DNA of 64,000 nt from Escherichia phage UPWr_E1, in the sequence record PP418985.1. One strand, given 5' to 3'. Both the position numbers and the translations under genes were made by a program. The notes beneath the pieces were generated by a model, which saw only the letters and a program-made list of their open reading frames with translations, did no database searches and was not told the DNA's origin. Below, piece by piece: positions 5,399 to 11,677 of this stretch (within the stretch, counting starts at the first letter, position 1; every line of letters begins with the position of its first letter).

Positions 5399-6367
5399 AT
5401 GTTTAAACGCCAAGATTCTTCCAAACTGCAAGCTCAACTGGCCGCACTGAAAGGTGGCAACGGTTTCTCCAAAGAAGATCCGAAAGAGTGGAAGATTAAG
5501 ACTGATGCAGCAGGTAACGGTGAAGCCCTGATTCGCTTCCTGCCGTCTAAAACAGAAGACGGTCTGCCGATTGTGAAACTGGTAAACCATTCCTTCAAAG
5601 TTAATGGTAAATGGTATTGGGAAAACTGCTCAAGCACCCACGGTGATTTTGATTCTTGCCCTGTGTGCAAATATATTAACGAAAAAGATCTGTACAATAC
5701 CGATAAAACCGAATGGCAACTGATTAAGCGTAAGGCATCTTACTACGCAAATATTCTGGTACTGAAAGATCCTCAAGCACCGGAAAATGAAGGTAAAGTA
5801 TTCAAATTCCGCTTCGGTCAGAAAATTTATGATAAGATCGTTGCGATGGTGAACGTGAATACCGATATGGGCGAAGTTCCGGTCGATGTAACTTGTGTGT
5901 TCTCCGGTGCTAACTTCCTCCTGAAAGCTAAGAAGGTTGATAAACACCAGAACTATGATGATTCTCGTTTCATGCAGCAATCACAGCTTCCGAAAATTGA
6001 AGACGAAGCATATCAGAAATATCTGATGGAAAACATGGTTGATCTGGGCGAGATTGTAGCGCCTAGCCAGTTTAAACCGTTCGATGAACTGGAAACCAAA
6101 TTTAAGAAAACTATGGGCGTTTCTATGGTAGCTGGTGCTGCGGCTTCCAGTGCTGCGGCAGCGATTAACAGCCAGCTTGACGATTTTGACGCTGCTTTAA
6201 ATGCATTCGATTCTGGTATTACCGCAGCTAGCACTGTAGTTGGTATTAACGCAGCTAACACGGCGTCAGATTCTTCCGCTGATGATCTGATGGCATCTCT
6301 GGACCTGGGTGGCGGTACTTCCTCCGCTTCTGATCTGGATGACCTGGACTCTCTGTTAGCGATGTAA
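5399..6367 (+). CDS. 32: gp32 single-stranded DNA-binding protein
   Basis: Start MFKRQDSS at the ATG 6 nt inside track ORF 5393; LIRFLPSK, zinc-binding [11 protein letters not shown], acidic S/D-rich C-terminus; T4 gp32-like. Confidence 0.9.
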
Positions 6368-6871: not shown

Positions 6872-7201
6872 ATGTGGACTGTAGAACAAATCGTAGATGG
6901 AACAGTAAGTATTATCTCGTGTGGCACTATTGAAGAATGCCTTAAAGCCGCTAACCGTGAATGTATTACGGTTTATGAAGCCCGTCGCGGTGATGGTACT
7001 GTGTTAACCAGCGACTATCGATATGAACCAAAAATGATTACCTTTCGTTTCTGGGAAAATGGTGTTAATGTTGGGGTATCTCACTTAAAACGTTTTCGTG
7101 ATTATTCTGACCGTTATTTCATCACACCGGATAACGGTCAAGAATTTAAGACAGCAATCACCGAAGAAAATGTAAACGAAAACTTCTTTAAACTGATTTG
7201 A
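6872..7201 (+). CDS. Hypothetical protein, 109 aa
   Basis: ORF with RBS agagagga. Confidence 0.55.
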   Translation: MWTVEQIVDGTVSIISCGTIEECLKAANRECITVYEARRGDGTVLTSDYRYEPKMITFRFWENGVNVGVSHLKRFRDYSDRYFITPDNGQEFKTAITEENVNENFFKLI

Positions 7202-7215
7202 CAGGAGATTATATT

Positions 7216-7797
7216 ATGATTCAATGTGTATTTGCGATTGGTAACACTAAAATGTCGGATGAAAATTGGGCGTTTGGTTTTAAAGGCGGTTTACCGTGGG
7301 GTCGTCCAATCAAAAAAGATATGGAAAACTTTAAAATCCGCACCATTGGTGAGGTTGATTTTGCTGCGGTAGTAATGGGACGTAATACCTTTGAAAGTCT
7401 GCCTAAAGCACTTTGGGGACGTTTGAATGTGGTTGTTAGTACCGATACCAGCAAGCCAGAACCGAAAACAAAAAACGGCGACCAACCCGATGTGTATACC
7501 GCAATTACTAATGATGATGAATTAAAGGATCTGTTAAAAGTCCTGGAGAAAACGCAAGGTTTGGTAAGTGTTATCGGTGGACCTTCCCTGATTGAAAAAG
7601 CGGTTGACTTTGCGGACCGTATTGTGTTAACGTATGTTCAACGTTCAGGAATCAACGATCCATTTGAATATGATGTTGGTATCTCTAAGGAAATGATTCA
7701 TGAATTATATTTTGACTTTGCAACAAAAGAAGAACATAATTACTTCCTTGATAATTACCTGATCAGCGAACAAATTTTAGAACGTAAGAAGGCGTAA
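7216..7797 (+). CDS. frd: Dihydrofolate reductase
   Basis: 193 aa from the ATG after RBS ggaga; DHFR motifs GLPWGRPIKKDMENFK and VMGRNTFESLP. Confidence 0.85.
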   Translation: MIQCVFAIGNTKMSDENWAFGFKGGLPWGRPIKKDMENFKIRTIGEVDFAAVVMGRNTFESLPKALWGRLNVVVSTDTSKPEPKTKNGDQPDVYTAITNDDELKDLLKVLEKTQGLVSVIGGPSLIEKAVDFADRIVLTYVQRSGINDPFEYDVGISKEMIHELYFDFATKEEHNYFLDNYLISEQILERKKA

Positions 7798-7798
7798 C

Positions 7799-7891
7799 AT
7801 GAAAATTCTGACAGATTATGAGTGCAAACATTGTGGTGAATCTTTGATGTTTGCTGGTAGTCGGTGTTTACATTGTGGACGGGAACAATAA
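7799..7891 (+). CDS. Tiny zinc-ribbon peptide, 30 aa (CxxC-x12-CxxC)
   Basis: MKILTDYECKHCGESLMFAGSRCLHCGREQ; start 1 nt after frd stop, stop overlaps next start (TAATG); below ORF-track size cutoff. Confidence 0.3.
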   Translation: MKILTDYECKHCGESLMFAGSRCLHCGREQ

Positions 7892-8160
7892 TGAAAATAA
7901 CCATTATTCAATTATGGTCAGCTACCAGTGAAAACTACGCAGTAGCCGTAGATTATTACGGTTTACAATATCTCTATGATGAAGCTAAAGCGTCATGGCT
8001 TCCAGTACAGGAAAATAGCGACATTTCAAGACCTGTCACTGTATTCGACCCGGGCGTTGTCTTTATCGATATTGACGAGACAGTAGCAAAACTGCGTAAG
8101 AAAGCAATCAACAAGAAAAAGGTGAAGTGGGATGAAAGAATATTTGAAACTGTTGCGTGA
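7891..8160 (+). CDS. Hypothetical protein, 89 aa
   Basis: In-frame ATG at TAATG junction; overlaps td start by 29 nt. Confidence 0.45.
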   Translation: MKITIIQLWSATSENYAVAVDYYGLQYLYDEAKASWLPVQENSDISRPVTVFDPGVVFIDIDETVAKLRKKAINKKKVKWDERIFETVA

Positions 8161-9364
8161 TGTTCTTGATAATGGCTGGCCTCGTGAAGACCGAACGGGT
8201 GTAGGTACGCTCTCTAAATTCGGCGCAGAGATGCGAATCGATTTAAGCAAGGGTTTCCCCTTACTGACCACTAAAAAGATGGCTACAGCCTCTGTAATTG
8301 GCGAGTTGCTATGGTTTATGGAAGGGTCACTTGACCGCCGTCGCTTACAGGAAATTACACGCGGTAAGTTTGACGAAGAAGCCTTTGATATTTGGCGCGG
8401 TAACTGTCTTGATATGAAAGAAAAGAATCCTTTGCGATTCAATGGTTATAATGTCGGCAATATGTATGGTATGGCATGGCGACGCAAACCGATTCATCCA
8501 CACGGGGAAGTCAAAATTAAGCGCGTTAAAAGCAAATACACGCATACATTTAAGCACCCGTGGGTAGAAGACTTTACGCCAACCAATGACACAGAAGACC
8601 GTTTATGTGCTATCTGGCGTGGTATGCGTTATGAAGAGTTTGATTCTGAATATAATCTATTCTTAGTAGCAGACCACTGGAAGACTCAATCTAATTTTGT
8701 TAATGATGCATATTGCTTGTGGGGATTCCAGGAATGGGTAGATGATGGTTATTTCGGTTATCTGCTTGATAGTGATTATCTGGGTGGGGATATGTTCGCA
8801 CCGGATACCACGATCTTTGTTAGTATGGACGTAGACACATCAAGCCATAAAGACGATGAAGAATATGTCTATCGCCCGAAGATTTGGGAAGACCAGTTAC
8901 AAAACGTGATTGAACAAATTAAAAACAATCCAACGGATCGCCGGATCATTATTGACTCATGGAACGTACAAGGAACACATAATGCTGTATTGGGTGTATG
9001 TCATCCGTTCGTACAATTCTACGTCAATGAAGGTAAACTGTCTTGTATGTGGTTTCAGCGAAGCGTAGACAGCTTTTTGGGCTTGCCCTTTAACGTCGCC
9101 AGCTATGCGCTGTTAACTCACATCATAGCGAAAATGTGTGATCTTGAGGTAGGAGAACTGATTTTCTCTGGTGGAGATACTCACATTTACAAAAACCATT
9201 TTGATCAAGTTACGGAACAGTTAAGCCGTGTTCCTTTTGATAAACCAACAATTGAGTTGCCGGAATTTAAATCTTTAGATGAGGTATTGACAAAGACTCC
9301 GAAAGACTTTAAAATTCACAACTATCAAAGCCATCCAGCAATCACCGCTCAAATGGCAGTATAA
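8132..9364 (+). CDS. td: Thymidylate synthase with large internal insertion
   Basis: 410 aa; motifs DRTGVGT, LWFMEG, catalytic Cys in LGVCHPFVQFYV, DRRIIIDSWNV, QRSVDSFLGLPFNVASYALL; about 120 extra residues between the YG.AWRR and DQLQ motifs; no intron. Confidence 0.85.
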   Translation: MKEYLKLLRDVLDNGWPREDRTGVGTLSKFGAEMRIDLSKGFPLLTTKKMATASVIGELLWFMEGSLDRRRLQEITRGKFDEEAFDIWRGNCLDMKEKNPLRFNGYNVGNMYGMAWRRKPIHPHGEVKIKRVKSKYTHTFKHPWVEDFTPTNDTEDRLCAIWRGMRYEEFDSEYNLFLVADHWKTQSNFVNDAYCLWGFQEWVDDGYFGYLLDSDYLGGDMFAPDTTIFVSMDVDTSSHKDDEEYVYRPKIWEDQLQNVIEQIKNNPTDRRIIIDSWNVQGTHNAVLGVCHPFVQFYVNEGKLSCMWFQRSVDSFLGLPFNVASYALLTHIIAKMCDLEVGELIFSGGDTHIYKNHFDQVTEQLSRVPFDKPTIELPEFKSLDEVLTKTPKDFKIHNYQSHPAITAQMAV

Positions 9365-9433
9365 ACAAAGGGGGTCGAAAGCCCCCAATATGGAGGATAA
9401 ACTTGTTCCTGCTAAAATATGAAGTGAGGTAAT

Positions 9434-11677
9434 ATGATTAAAAATGTTGTTAAGTCTTCCGGTCTGACTGTTCCGTTTGAAAAAGAAAAAGTAATGAAAA
9501 TTCTGGAAGCGGCAGCCGAAGGTCATAACGTTGATCCATATGAATTGTTTGATATGGTTGAACCACTTCTGACAGAAGGTATGTCTACCAATGATATCCA
9601 GAAAGTATTGATTAAGGTCGCCGCAGATAACATTACTGTAGAAACACCTGATTATCAATATGTAGCAAGTAACCTTGCAATGTTCGCGCTTCGTAAATCA
9701 GTATACGGTCAATTCCAACCTATTGATTTTTATAGCCATATTGAGCGTAATATTGCAACCGGAAAATATGATCGCGAAATTCTGCAAAAGTATTCCCGTG
9801 AAGAAGTGGAATATCTGGAGAAATTCATTGATCATAAACTTGATTTTAAAATGACCTATGCTGGTGCGATGCAGTTAAAAGAGAAATATCTTGTTCAGGA
9901 TCGCAGCACTAAGAAAATCATTGAAACACCGCAATTTGCGTATATGTTGATCGGTATGTGCTTACATCAAGAAGAGACAGAAAATCGACTTGAACATGTG
10001 ATTGATTTTTATAATGCTGTTGCGAATAAGCAAATCTCTCTGCCTACTCCGATTATGGCGGGTGTGCGTACTCCAACACGACAATTTAGTTCGTGTGTGG
10101 TGATCGAATCTGATGATTCATTGCAGGGTATTAATGAAACCGCAAATGCAATCATCAAGTATATTAGCAAGCGTGCTGGTATCGGTATCAACGCTGGCAT
10201 GATTCGCGCGGAAGGATCTAAGATCGGGCATGGTGAAGTTCGTCATACTGGCGTTATCCCATTCTGGAAACATTTTCAGACTGCCGTTAAGTCATGCTCA
10301 CAAGGCGGTATTCGTGGCGGGGCGGCGACTCTCTATTACCCAATGTGGCATTTAGAATTTGAAAGTCTTATTGTGTTGAAGAATAACAAAGGGGTAGAAG
10401 ACAACCGCATTCGCCATCTTGATTACGGCGTACAGATTAATAACCTGATGGTAGAGCGATTCCTTAAACGGGATTACATTACTCTGTTTAGTCCAGATGT
10501 TGCGGGTGGCTTGTTGTGGGATCTGTACTTCCGAGATGAGGAAGGTTTCCGCCAGCTTTACGAAAAACTGGAAAAAGATCCGAGTGTTCGTAAAACTCGT
10601 GTTAAAGCCGAAGACCTGTTTTTAGCGGTGGCAATTGAACGTTTTAACACTGGTCGAATCTATCCAGCGTTCACAGACAACATGAACAATCACGGGGCGT
10701 TTATTCGCAATGTAGCACCGATTAAACAATCTAACCTGTGTTGCGAAATTGCACTGCCTACTAAACCAATGGGGCGTGATGATTCAGAGATCAGCCTATG
10801 TACTTTGGCAGCATATGTTTTAGGTAATTTCGATATCGAAAACATGGAAGAAGTAGAACGCATTGCTATGGTTATGGTGCGTGCACTTGACAACTTGTTA
10901 GATTACCAGGATTATCCCGTAGAACAAGCTCTGACAGCAAAAAAACGTCGCTCTCTGGGTGTTGGTGTGACTAACTTTGCATCATATCTGGCGGATAATT
11001 TCTTCACATATGAAGACGCCAACGAGTTTACGCATAAAACGTTTGAACGCTTGCAATATGCTCTGATTAAGGCTAGTGTGCAACTGGCTAAAGAGAAGGG
11101 TGCTTGCGAACTGATGCACGAAACACGTTATGGTCGCGGTGAACTGCCTATCGACTGGTACAAAAAGACAGTAGATGAACTGGTTGACCCGGTGTATGAG
11201 ATGGATTGGGAAGAACTGCGCGAAGACCTGAAAAAATATGGCATTCGTAACAGTACGCTTTCGGCGCTGATGCCTTGTGAGTCGTCTTCTCAGGTGTCTA
11301 ACAGCACAAACGGTATTGAACCGCCTCGCGGGATTGTATCGGTTAAAGGATCGAAAGAAGGGCAATTTAATCAGGTTATTCCGAACGTAGAGAATAATGC
11401 TGATGTTATTGACTTGCTTTGGACACTGATCAAGAAAGGTAACAAGCCTTATCTGACACTGGCAGCGATTATGCAGAAGTTTGTCGACCAGGCGATTAGT
11501 TCCAATACATCCTATGATCCAAGCACTTATAAGACTGGTAAAGTCGATATTGCTGATGTATTAGATGATATGTTATTTGCTCAATATTACGGCCTCAAGA
11601 CACTGTATTACGCTAACGTGCGTGATGGTGCTGATGGTACGGAAGACGCTAGCGAATGTTCATCTTGCAAACTGTAA
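9434..11677 (+). CDS. nrdA: Ribonucleotide reductase large subunit
   Basis: 747 aa; class Ia NrdA-like with ATP-cone N-terminus and C-terminal CxxC tail; synteny td-nrdA-nrdB. Confidence 0.9.
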   Translation: MIKNVVKSSGLTVPFEKEKVMKILEAAAEGHNVDPYELFDMVEPLLTEGMSTNDIQKVLIKVAADNITVETPDYQYVASNLAMFALRKSVYGQFQPIDFYSHIERNIATGKYDREILQKYSREEVEYLEKFIDHKLDFKMTYAGAMQLKEKYLVQDRSTKKIIETPQFAYMLIGMCLHQEETENRLEHVIDFYNAVANKQISLPTPIMAGVRTPTRQFSSCVVIESDDSLQGINETANAIIKYISKRAGIGINAGMIRAEGSKIGHGEVRHTGVIPFWKHFQTAVKSCSQGGIRGGAATLYYPMWHLEFESLIVLKNNKGVEDNRIRHLDYGVQINNLMVERFLKRDYITLFSPDVAGGLLWDLYFRDEEGFRQLYEKLEKDPSVRKTRVKAEDLFLAVAIERFNTGRIYPAFTDNMNNHGAFIRNVAPIKQSNLCCEIALPTKPMGRDDSEISLCTLAAYVLGNFDIENMEEVERIAMVMVRALDNLLDYQDYPVEQALTAKKRRSLGVGVTNFASYLADNFFTYEDANEFTHKTFERLQYALIKASVQLAKEKGACELMHETRYGRGELPIDWYKKTVDELVDPVYEMDWEELREDLKKYGIRNSTLSALMPCESSSQVSNSTNGIEPPRGIVSVKGSKEGQFNQVIPNVENNADVIDLLWTLIKKGNKPYLTLAAIMQKFVDQAISSNTSYDPSTYKTGKVDIADVLDDMLFAQYYGLKTLYYANVRDGADGTEDASECSSCKL

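What the first reader, a model, noticed from the sequence alone, without database searches (positions are those of the whole stretch)
8460..8840. Thymidylate synthase carries a roughly 120-residue in-frame insertion
The td product is 410 aa against about 265-290 aa for bacterial and T4 enzymes. All core motifs including the catalytic cysteine are present, and the extra residues sit between the YG.AWRR motif and the DQLQ..IK.NP.DRRII motif, the variable small-domain region. The insert is aromatic- and acidic-rich and shows no intein boundary residues and no frame break.
Basis: seen in the sequence. Interest (0 to 1): 0.45.

Follow-up and report, generated by a model that had tools for sequence, protein, structure and literature searches.

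The report
Dead homing-endonuclease domain inside thymidylate synthase
The extra ~125 residues in this phage's thymidylate synthase are the decayed core of a selfish DNA-cutting gene (an IPA-HNH homing endonuclease) inserted in-frame into a surface loop of the enzyme; intact versions sit at the same loop in many other phages, apparently without an intron or intein to remove them.

Summary
All the extra length is one block of 136 aa between YGMAWR (aa 112-117) and DQLQ (aa 254), where E. coli has 10 aa and T4 has 5.

The window is an RB49-like Krischvirus, and all 58 close relatives carry the insert.

The insert is not a generic small-domain elaboration. It is homologous to the central HNH-like domain of free-standing phage IPA-HNH homing endonucleases (the ICP1 gp59 family; module profile E=3e-20).

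Full-length versions (~245-285 aa: SH3-like module, HNH-like core, AP2 or NUMOD tail) sit at the same loop in thymidylate synthases of at least five lineages. One (P0024) has a core 92% identical to an insert-less enzyme, which suggests site-specific mobility. A T4-like phage with the same frd-td-nrdA order carries the full-length sister form.

The window's copy has lost both DNA-binding modules and nearly every conserved polar residue (DKD is now DSD; Y, S, C, N are replaced), but keeps the hydrophobic scaffold. AlphaFold2 models it confidently as a separate domain on a two-stranded stalk, and it evolves at dN/dS ~0.24 against ~0.03 for the N-terminal core.

I found no intein, no intron and no frame break. 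Most likely it is a nuclease-dead, fixed relic. Nuclease activity, homing and absence of splicing are untested.

The parts
8132..9364 (+). td gene: 410-aa thymidylate synthase with the in-frame insertion (47.9 kDa predicted; the core alone would be 33.3 kDa)
8132..8482 (+). TS N-terminal core (aa 1-117). It ends in the RFNGYNVGNMYGMAWR flank that is typical of insert-bearing TS.
   Evidence: The RFNG flank occurs in 33 of 45 insert-bearing TS and 0 of 94 insert-less TS. dN/dS ~0.03.
8483..8521 (+). Outgoing strand of a long two-stranded beta ribbon (aa 118-130, RKPIHPHGEVKIK). This is the extended native TS hairpin that carries the insert.
   Evidence: AF2 model, strand E118-130
8522..8587 (+). 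Coil linker (aa 131-152) at the position where full-length relatives have the SH3/Tudor-like module and the GVGYLG motif. This is the site of deletion 1.
8588..8758 (+). Helical part of the HNH-like core (aa 153-209): the W..M helix, W..NF helices and the LWGFQEWVD motif. The hydrophobic scaffold residues W, M, V, W, F are retained.
8645..8656 (+). A 4-aa indel polymorphism (SEYN) inside the insert. It is absent from GEC-3S, JSE, Phi1, G2494, E26 and L006.
8759..8824 (+). Remnant of the beta-beta-alpha hairpin (aa 210-231, YLLDSDYLGGDMFAPDTTIFV). The family's DKD is DSD here, YSP is FAP and C is T.
8825..8863 (+). Acidic coil (aa 232-244). It replaces the helix that bears the conserved Asn and the whole AP2-like tail. 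This is the site of deletion 2.
8864..8893 (+). Return strand of the beta ribbon (aa 245-254, YVYRPKIWED), leading into DQLQ
8891..9361 (+). TS C-terminal core (aa 254-410), with the catalytic Cys290 at nt 8999-9001
8906..9200 (+). Mosaic patch. GEC-3S, JSE and Skers are only 52-82% identical to the window here, against 93-100% in the ~240 nt just upstream (most of the upstream td is 88-100%, with one 72% bin over the SEYN indel in GEC-3S and JSE). The patch begins 15-35 nt downstream of the insert junction.

Best explanation
The insert is the nuclease-dead, trimmed remnant of an IPA-HNH-type homing endonuclease gene. That gene once inserted in-frame into the surface hairpin loop after the YG.QWR motif of thymidylate synthase.

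Shown:
- The insert is homologous to the central HNH-like domain of the gp59-type family.
- Full-length copies (SH3-like module, HNH-like core, AP2/NUMOD tail) occupy the same loop in TS of many phages, including a T4-like phage with the same gene order.
- The window's copy lacks both DNA-binding modules and the family's conserved polar residues, but keeps the hydrophobic scaffold.
- It is modelled confidently as a separate domain on a beta-ribbon stalk.
- It is under moderate purifying selection.

Inferred:
- The ancestral full-length element spread by cutting insert-less td alleles during co-infection and being copied in by repair. It needs no intron or intein because the loop tolerates a folded domain.
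- After fixation in the RB49 lineage the nuclease decayed.
- What remains persists because imprecise deletion would damage an essential enzyme, the domain must still fold, and the filled site is probably immune to re-invasion.
- The mature Td is therefore a 48-kDa unspliced chimera.
For: Homology of the insert:
- Insert alone against phages: TS of jumbo phages at E=1e-12, D148 at 2e-6, and weak hits in HNH endonuclease genes. PHROG HNH families hit weakly.
- The UE-S1 insert hits phrog_2081, 953 and 374 at 4e-32, 7e-25 and 8e-21.
- The window td hits the module profile A4, which contains no window sequence, at E=3e-20. P0001 scores 1.3e-19.
- ICP1 gp59 hits the module profile at 1.9e-49. gp59 is a founding IPA-HNH member (PMC10448857).

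Nature of the family:
- AP2 or I-HmuI NUMOD tails in relatives.
- The family has 64,744 cluster representatives, almost all free-standing.

Mobility and ancestry:
- Filled/empty pairs: P0024 core is 92% identical to insert-less P0060.
- The T4-like sister P0008 has frd-td-nrdA synteny, and two deletions account for the window's form.

Decay with retained fold:
- Polar residues lost, scaffold kept.
- AF2 pLDDT 93 for the whole protein.
- dN/dS 0.24 for the insert against 0.03 for the N-core.

Exclusions: no Rfam hit, no Hint/intein Pfam hit, composition like its surroundings.
Against: - No member of the IPA-HNH family has demonstrated nuclease or homing activity (the authors say so themselves).
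- dN/dS of 0.24, a confident fold and retention across a clade down to ~50% identity (P0003-P0006) fit an exapted function as well as a mere relic.
- No empty-site allele was found for the window's own TS class; the best insert-less relative is ~54% identical. So mobility of this class is inferred from other classes.
- Absence of protein splicing is inferred from sequence only.
Confidence: 0.72

Rival explanations
1. Exapted domain. The trimmed HNH-like fold has been recruited for a new, non-nuclease role in RB49-like phages. Possibilities include a protein-protein contact in the dNTP-synthesis complex, regulation of TS, or nucleic-acid binding. It would be kept by selection for that role.
For: Purifying selection at dN/dS ~0.24. 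A confident independent fold. Retention of a ~115-145 aa form across TS as divergent as 47-54% identity (P0003-P0006, P0009, P0013). The motif LWGFQE(W/F)VD is conserved in td-embedded copies but absent from free-standing ones.
Against: The insert evolves about 7-fold faster than the N-core at the protein level and is only 27-47% identical where the cores are 60-72%. Indels are tolerated (SEYN). No conserved polar patch was identified. Both DNA-binding modules are gone. Constraint may simply reflect the need to fold without harming an essential enzyme.
Confidence: 0.2
2. The window's insert is still an active homing endonuclease domain, expressed as part of Td.
For: It keeps the fold scaffold and both Asp of the DKD triad (as DSD). 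A recombination boundary lies 15-35 nt from its 3' junction, as reported for nuclease genes in PMC10448857.
Against: K163, which is 100% conserved, is Ser. Y171, S172, C176, N184 and R113 are replaced, the helix carrying the conserved Asn is missing, and the SH3-like and AP2-like DNA-binding modules are deleted. All 58 close relatives are filled, so no target remains.
Confidence: 0.04
3. The insert is removed after transcription or translation, as a group I intron like the one in T4 td or as an intein. The mature enzyme would then be of normal size.
For: T4 td carries a group I intron, and phage TS-family genes can carry inteins (established knowledge; for ThyX).
Against: No Rfam family matches at E<=1 in 7800-9700. 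The ORF is continuous and codon-level selection acts on the insert. No Hint domain is found. The junction residues (G|E at the N side, P|K at the C side) lack the Cys/Ser/Thr nucleophiles and the His-Asn of inteins, and they vary among relatives. AF2 integrates the insert through a paired beta ribbon.
Confidence: 0.02
4. A lineage-specific elaboration of the TS variable loop or small domain, unrelated to mobile elements. The resemblance to endonucleases would be chance.
For: The loop varies naturally in length, from 5 to 34 aa in insert-less TS. Pfam finds nothing in the insert alone.
Against: Profile E-values of 3e-20 (A4) and 8e-33 (A5). Intermediates are colinear from short td inserts, through full-length td inserts, to free-standing genes. 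PHROG hits of the long forms reach 4e-32.
Confidence: 0.02

Closest known systems
IPA-HNH homing endonuclease genes (ICP1 gp59, gp115-116, gp209; Barth, Dunham & Seed 2023, PMC10448857)
   Same: The insert's core is homologous to their divergent HNH-like domain. Full-length td inserts share the whole architecture, including an AP2 or NUMOD tail. Like them, it is associated with nucleotide-metabolism genes and with a recombination boundary.
   Different: Those are free-standing genes. Here the element is translated in-frame inside the host enzyme. The window's copy also lacks the AP2 tail, the N-terminal module and the conserved polar residues.
Inteins carrying homing endonucleases (for example the ICP1 NrdA intein)
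   Same: An in-frame selfish element inside an essential nucleotide-metabolism gene, placed at a conserved site, with degenerate 'mini' forms after fixation.
   Different: No Hint splicing domain and no splice-junction residues. The insert apparently stays in the mature protein as an extra domain.
In-frame LAGLIDADG-rps3 fusions in fungal mitochondria (Gibb & Hausner 2005, as cited in PMC7902536)
   Same: A homing-endonuclease coding sequence joined in-frame to a host protein gene without its own intron or intein.
   Different: A different nuclease family and host. Per the cited sentence, those are fusions of the coding sequences, whereas here the element is nested in an internal surface loop of an enzyme.
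MobE-split nrdA of Aeromonas phage Aeh1 ('genes in pieces', Friedrich et al. 2007, cited in PMC10448857)
   Same: A free-standing-type HNH HEG has invaded the coding region of a T4-like nucleotide-metabolism gene, and the enzyme still works.
   Different: There the host gene is split into two polypeptides. Here the reading frame is continuous.
T4 td group I intron with I-TevI
   Same: The same host gene, td, in a T4-like phage, colonised by a homing element.
   Different: That element is removed at the RNA level, carries a GIY-YIG enzyme and sits at a different site in td. No intron is present here.

Membership tests
Thymidylate synthase ThyA (PF00303) | Pfam match above the gathering score, colinear over the whole core | tested here: met
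   284.8 bits against a cut-off of 24.3, in two stretches. PDB alignments cover ThyA 1-82 and 110-264.
Thymidylate synthase ThyA (PF00303) | Catalytic Cys and the dUMP/folate-binding residues (E. coli R21, C146, R166, S167, D169, N177, H207, Y209) | tested here: met
   R21, C290, R310, S311, D313, N321, H351 and Y353 are invariant in A3.
Thymidylate synthase ThyA (PF00303) | Enzymatic dTMP synthesis | not testable with these tools
   Needs an assay. The strong purifying selection on the core (dN/dS 0.03) is consistent with activity.
IPA-HNH homing endonucleases | Divergent HNH-like domain homologous to ICP1 gp59/gp115/gp209 | tested here: met
   Window td against module profile A4: E=3e-20. 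gp59 against the related module profile A5: E=1.9e-49.
IPA-HNH homing endonucleases | C-terminal AP2 (or equivalent) DNA-binding domain | tested here: not met
   Deleted in the window. Present in relatives.
IPA-HNH homing endonucleases | Family-conserved polar residues (D-K-D, Y-S, C, N, R) | tested here: not met
   K to S, Y to F/L, S to A, C to T, N to D, R to E.
IPA-HNH homing endonucleases | Free-standing gene beside essential genes | tested here: not met
   It lies in-frame inside td.
IPA-HNH homing endonucleases | Site-specific DNA cleavage and homing | not testable with these tools
   Not verified experimentally even for the founding members.
Canonical HNH nucleases (Pfam HNH, HNH_3) | Profile match and the His-Asn-His/Asn beta-beta-alpha metal site | tested here: inconclusive
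Inteins | Hint domain blocks; N-terminal Cys/Ser; C-terminal His-Asn followed by Cys/Ser/Thr | tested here: not met
   No Hint Pfam hit at E<=1. The junctions are G|E...P|K and vary among relatives.
Group I introns (as in T4 td) | Ribozyme structure interrupting the reading frame | tested here: not met
   No Rfam hit at E<=1. The ORF is continuous.

The most novel reading that the evidence does not exclude
Full-length IPA-HNH elements nested in the TS hairpin loop may be active homing endonucleases that colonise an essential gene without any splicing device. That would be a third strategy beside introns and inteins: the nuclease is simply displayed as an extra domain on a permissive loop. Because TS is an obligate homodimer, two HNH-like nickase domains would be presented together and could make the double-strand break. 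The RB49-type insert would be the end-stage 'mini' form of that cycle, possibly exapted.
Probability: 0.35. Interest if true: 0.8.

Novelty: new variant of a known kind. Interest (0 to 1): 0.6.

Why it matters
Homing endonuclease genes are thought to survive inside essential genes only by hiding in introns or inteins, by sitting between genes, or, rarely, by splitting the host gene. This case suggests another route: in-frame residence in a permissive surface loop, with the nuclease carried as an unspliced domain of the host enzyme.

The element recurs in at least five thymidylate synthase lineages, shows filled/empty polymorphism, and has all decay stages on record. That makes the homing cycle (invasion, fixation, decay) readable within one protein loop and directly testable with well-behaved proteins and T4-like phage genetics.

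It also corrects annotation. These genes are labelled variously 'thymidylate synthase', 'HNH endonuclease' or 'hypothetical protein'. Finally, it identifies a loop of TS that tolerates insertions of 120-285 residues, which is useful for protein engineering.

Tried and rejected
- Pfam on the insert alone: no hit even at E<=10.
- Word-index homologue search with the insert alone: nothing, because it needs shared 5-mers.
- Profile searches of PDB sequences with A2 and A5: only noise, or nothing.
- Foldseek of the full-length insert model against PDB: nothing significant.
Rebuilt as A5.
- Split-gene idea for P0157 (an Alkalihalobacillus 'TS' that starts inside the insert): rejected. A TTG start 465 nt upstream gives an intact 549-aa protein.
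- Intron hypothesis: rejected by Rfam.
- Free-standing paralogue in the window as a possible source: none. Only td hits the module profile.
- Other in-frame host proteins: 20 long top hits were scanned. Four are TS, and none of the other 16 has another enzyme domain.
- Literature: the 2006 RB49 comparison, the T4 mobile-element review and the IPA-HNH paper do not mention the td insert. The 2002 RB49 paper is not held. The actinophage intein preprint concerns ThyX inteins, not this element.

Full report
**What is there**

The window is an RB49-like T-even phage (Krischvirus), 95-96% identical at the DNA level to RB49, JK32, ECD7 and others over frd-td-nrdA. The ORF 8132-9364 (+) encodes 410 aa. 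It lies between frd (7198-7797) and nrdA (9434-11677).

Pfam Thymidylat_synt matches at E=6.9e-85, but in two stretches. phmmer against PDB aligns residues 1-82 with E. coli ThyA 1-82 and residues 254-410 with ThyA 110-264. Alignment with E. coli ThyA and T4 Td, and anchoring on the YG..WR and DQ motifs, shows one block of 136 aa where E. coli has 10 and T4 has 5.

The catalytic Cys (C290) and the other active-site residues are invariant in a 35-sequence alignment. The insert is 18.9% aromatic and 20.5% acidic, about 1.6-1.8 times the core's fractions (10.4% and 12.5%). All 58 phage records with at least 90% identity to the protein carry the insert, so it is not an assembly error.

**What the insert is**

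Alone, the insert has no Pfam match and only weak PHROG matches to 'HNH endonuclease' families (E=0.085 and 0.26). tblastn with the insert alone, however, finds two kinds of hit:
- thymidylate synthases of unrelated phages: jumbo Asteriusvirus UE-S1 at E=1e-12, KP13-7 at 3e-12, and Vibrio phage D148 at 2e-6;
- weak hits inside free-standing 'HNH endonuclease' genes.

The td genes of UE-S1 (517 aa) and D148 (477 aa) carry longer insertions at exactly the same site. Those insertions align end-to-end with whole free-standing proteins such as Vibrio phage K373 gp91 and phage SD2 gp70.

The UE-S1 insertion matches PHROGs 2081, 953 and 374 (all 'HNH endonuclease') at E=4e-32, 7e-25 and 8e-21. A profile built from full-length td inserts plus free-standing proteins, with no window sequence in it, hits the window's td at E=3e-20 and nothing else in the window.

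Vibrio phage ICP1 gp59 matches the module profile at E=1.9e-49. gp59 is one of the three founding members of the 'IPA-HNH' homing endonuclease genes defined by Barth, Dunham & Seed 2023. That family has a divergent N-terminal HNH domain, detectable only by HMM-HMM comparison, plus a C-terminal AP2 DNA-binding domain (PMC10448857).

Consistent with this, free-standing relatives carry AP2 (P0141, P0153) or I-HmuI NUMOD-like tails. P0155 has the latter, as does the TS-embedded P0140 at 30.7 bits, above the gathering score.

An exhaustive profile search finds 64,744 cluster representatives at E<=1e-3, overwhelmingly proteins of 180-400 aa. In annotated phages there are 1,487 copies in 1,047 genomes, often beside polymerase or terminase genes. 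With so many free-standing copies and only dozens of TS-embedded ones, the direction of descent is from the homing endonuclease gene into td.

**Structure**

AlphaFold2 models the window's Td at pLDDT 93 and pTM 0.91. Residues 118-130 and 245-254 form a long two-stranded ribbon extending the native TS hairpin. Between them sits a compact unit: helix 153-171, short helices at 181-204 and a hairpin at 210-213/228-231.

The full-length insert of phiKp_21 Td (P0012), modelled alone, is equally confident (pLDDT 94.9). It has an N-terminal all-beta module, the same helical unit, a beta-beta-alpha element (strand ending in D162-K163-D164, strand 177-179, helix 181-187 with N184), then a small beta-beta-alpha tail.

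**The window's copy is a reduced, probably dead version**

I compared it with the full-length and free-standing sequences, column by column.

It keeps the hydrophobic scaffold: W107, M110, V129, W133, F139, L161, T175 and F178 (P0012-insert numbering).

It has lost the conserved polar positions:

| Position | Conservation in full-length forms | RB49 type / window |
|---|---|---|
| K163 | 100% | Ser |
| Y171 | 97% | Leu in the RB49 type, Phe in the window |
| S172 | 92% | Ala |
| C176 | 85% | Thr |
| N184 | 92% | Asp |
| R113 | 97% | Glu |

The GVGYLG motif is absent. The helix that carries N184 is replaced by an acidic coil.

Its closest full-length relative, P0008 (524 aa), lies in a T4-like contig with the same frd-td-nrdA-nrdB order. 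The pairwise alignment shows that the window's form equals the P0008 form minus two blocks, the SH3-like module and the AP2-like tail. Similar reductions arose independently in an Asteriusvirus-like TS background (P0009, P0013 and partly P0020).

**Is it drifting?**

Nei-Gojobori estimates over 11 Krischvirus td genes give dN/dS ~0.24 for the insert (0.15-0.36 in the 13 pairs printed), against 0.03 for the N-terminal core.

In deeper relatives the insert is 27-47% identical where the cores are 60-72%. A 4-aa indel segregates inside it. So the insert is constrained, but much less than the enzyme. That fits a domain that must fold harmlessly, or a modest acquired role. GC content matches the surroundings, consistent with an old insertion.

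**Evidence that the full-length element is, or was, mobile**

- **Many backgrounds.** Insert-bearing TS occur in T4-like (window, P0008), Asteriusvirus, E. coli-like (P0134, 70% identical to E. coli ThyA; P0133; P0145), eukaryote/giant-virus-like (P0135, P0143) and Bacillus-prophage TS-like (P0136, P0140, P0157) backgrounds. The site is always the same loop.
- **Filled and empty alleles.** The core of P0024 is 92% identical to insert-less P0060. Within that lineage the loop is 5 aa, 28 aa or a 281-aa insertion, with near-identical flanks.
- **Shared flank.** The window's class shares a distinctive upstream flank (RFNG.N.GNMYG..WR) in 33 insert-bearing TS and none of 94 insert-less TS. This includes proteins whose more distal N-terminal sequence is bacterial-like. 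That would fit either co-conversion or a fixed clade.
- **Recombination boundary.** In Krischvirus a ~300-nt divergent patch (52-82% identity) begins 15-35 nt downstream of the insert. This echoes the reported tendency of nuclease genes to mark recombination boundaries (PMC10448857).

Among the proteins I could scan, TS is the only in-frame host.

**What it is not**

There is no Rfam match, and hence no group I intron, in 7800-9700. There is no Hint/intein domain. The junction residues lack intein nucleophiles and vary among relatives. The reading frame is continuous and under codon-level selection.

**Mechanism, with status**

Shown: homology, architecture, site identity, reduction, predicted fold and selection.

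Inferred:
- The ancestral element cut empty td alleles in co-infections and was copied in by repair.
- It needs no splicing because this loop tolerates a folded domain. Insert-less TS already vary from 5 to 34 aa there.
- After fixation the nuclease decayed. The remnant persists because only a precise deletion would be harmless, and because a filled site is no longer a target.
- The idea that the obligate TS dimer presents two HNH-like domains to make a double-strand break is speculation.

**Comparison with the literature**

The free-standing family is known (IPA-HNH), though its activity is unverified. In-frame joining of a homing endonuclease to a host gene without an intron or intein has a precedent in LAGLIDADG-rps3 fusions.

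I found no description of the td insertion in the RB49 comparative paper, the T4 mobile-DNA review or the IPA-HNH paper, and no paper combining the relevant terms. Only open-access literature was searchable. I therefore rate it a new variant of a known kind.

The window's own feature is a relic. The interest lies in the class it reveals.

Noticed in passing
window 8906-9200: A ~300-nt mosaic patch in the C-terminal half of td. GEC-3S, JSE and Skers are 52-82% identical to the window here, while the bins on either side are 93-100%. Over the whole C-core, dS is ~0.9 against 0.1-0.2 for the N-core and insert.
   Followed up: partly
window 8645-8656: A 4-codon indel (SEYN) segregates among Krischvirus td genes inside the insert, giving lengths of 406-411 aa.
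   Followed up: yes
window 7864-8160: A 98-aa ORF (the homologue of RB49ORF236c) overlaps the td start by 29 nt. Function unknown. It is conserved in all relatives examined.
   Followed up: no
L001 2986-4419 (Vibrio phage D148): A 477-aa TS-endonuclease chimera is annotated only as 'HNH endonuclease'. phiKp_21's copy is annotated 'hypothetical protein'. Annotation of these genes is inconsistent.
   Followed up: partly
L032 5536-7185 (Alkalihalobacillus sp. genome, prophage-like region): A 'thymidylate synthase' called as 394 aa starts inside the insert. A TTG start at 5536 restores a 549-aa TS-like protein with a full-length insert, followed by DHFR.
   Followed up: yes
L028 1503-1593 (phage E26) and hit H12 (phage 011D4): Some Krischvirus genomes have extra genes between td and nrdA: a small hypothetical gene in E26 and DNA methylase genes in 011D4. 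This suggests the td-nrdA junction is a hotspot for insertions.
   Followed up: no
P0170, P0177, P0178, P0242 (661-724 aa, metagenomic): Proteins with the IPA-HNH-like module at the N-terminus, followed by ~450 aa with no Pfam match. These extensions are uncharacterised.
   Followed up: no
L035 4377-5945 (metagenome contig): P0134 is an insert-bearing TS whose core is 70% identical to E. coli ThyA. It sits next to DnaJ and DHFR genes, so the element may also occur in cellular or cell-derived thyA genes.
   Followed up: partly
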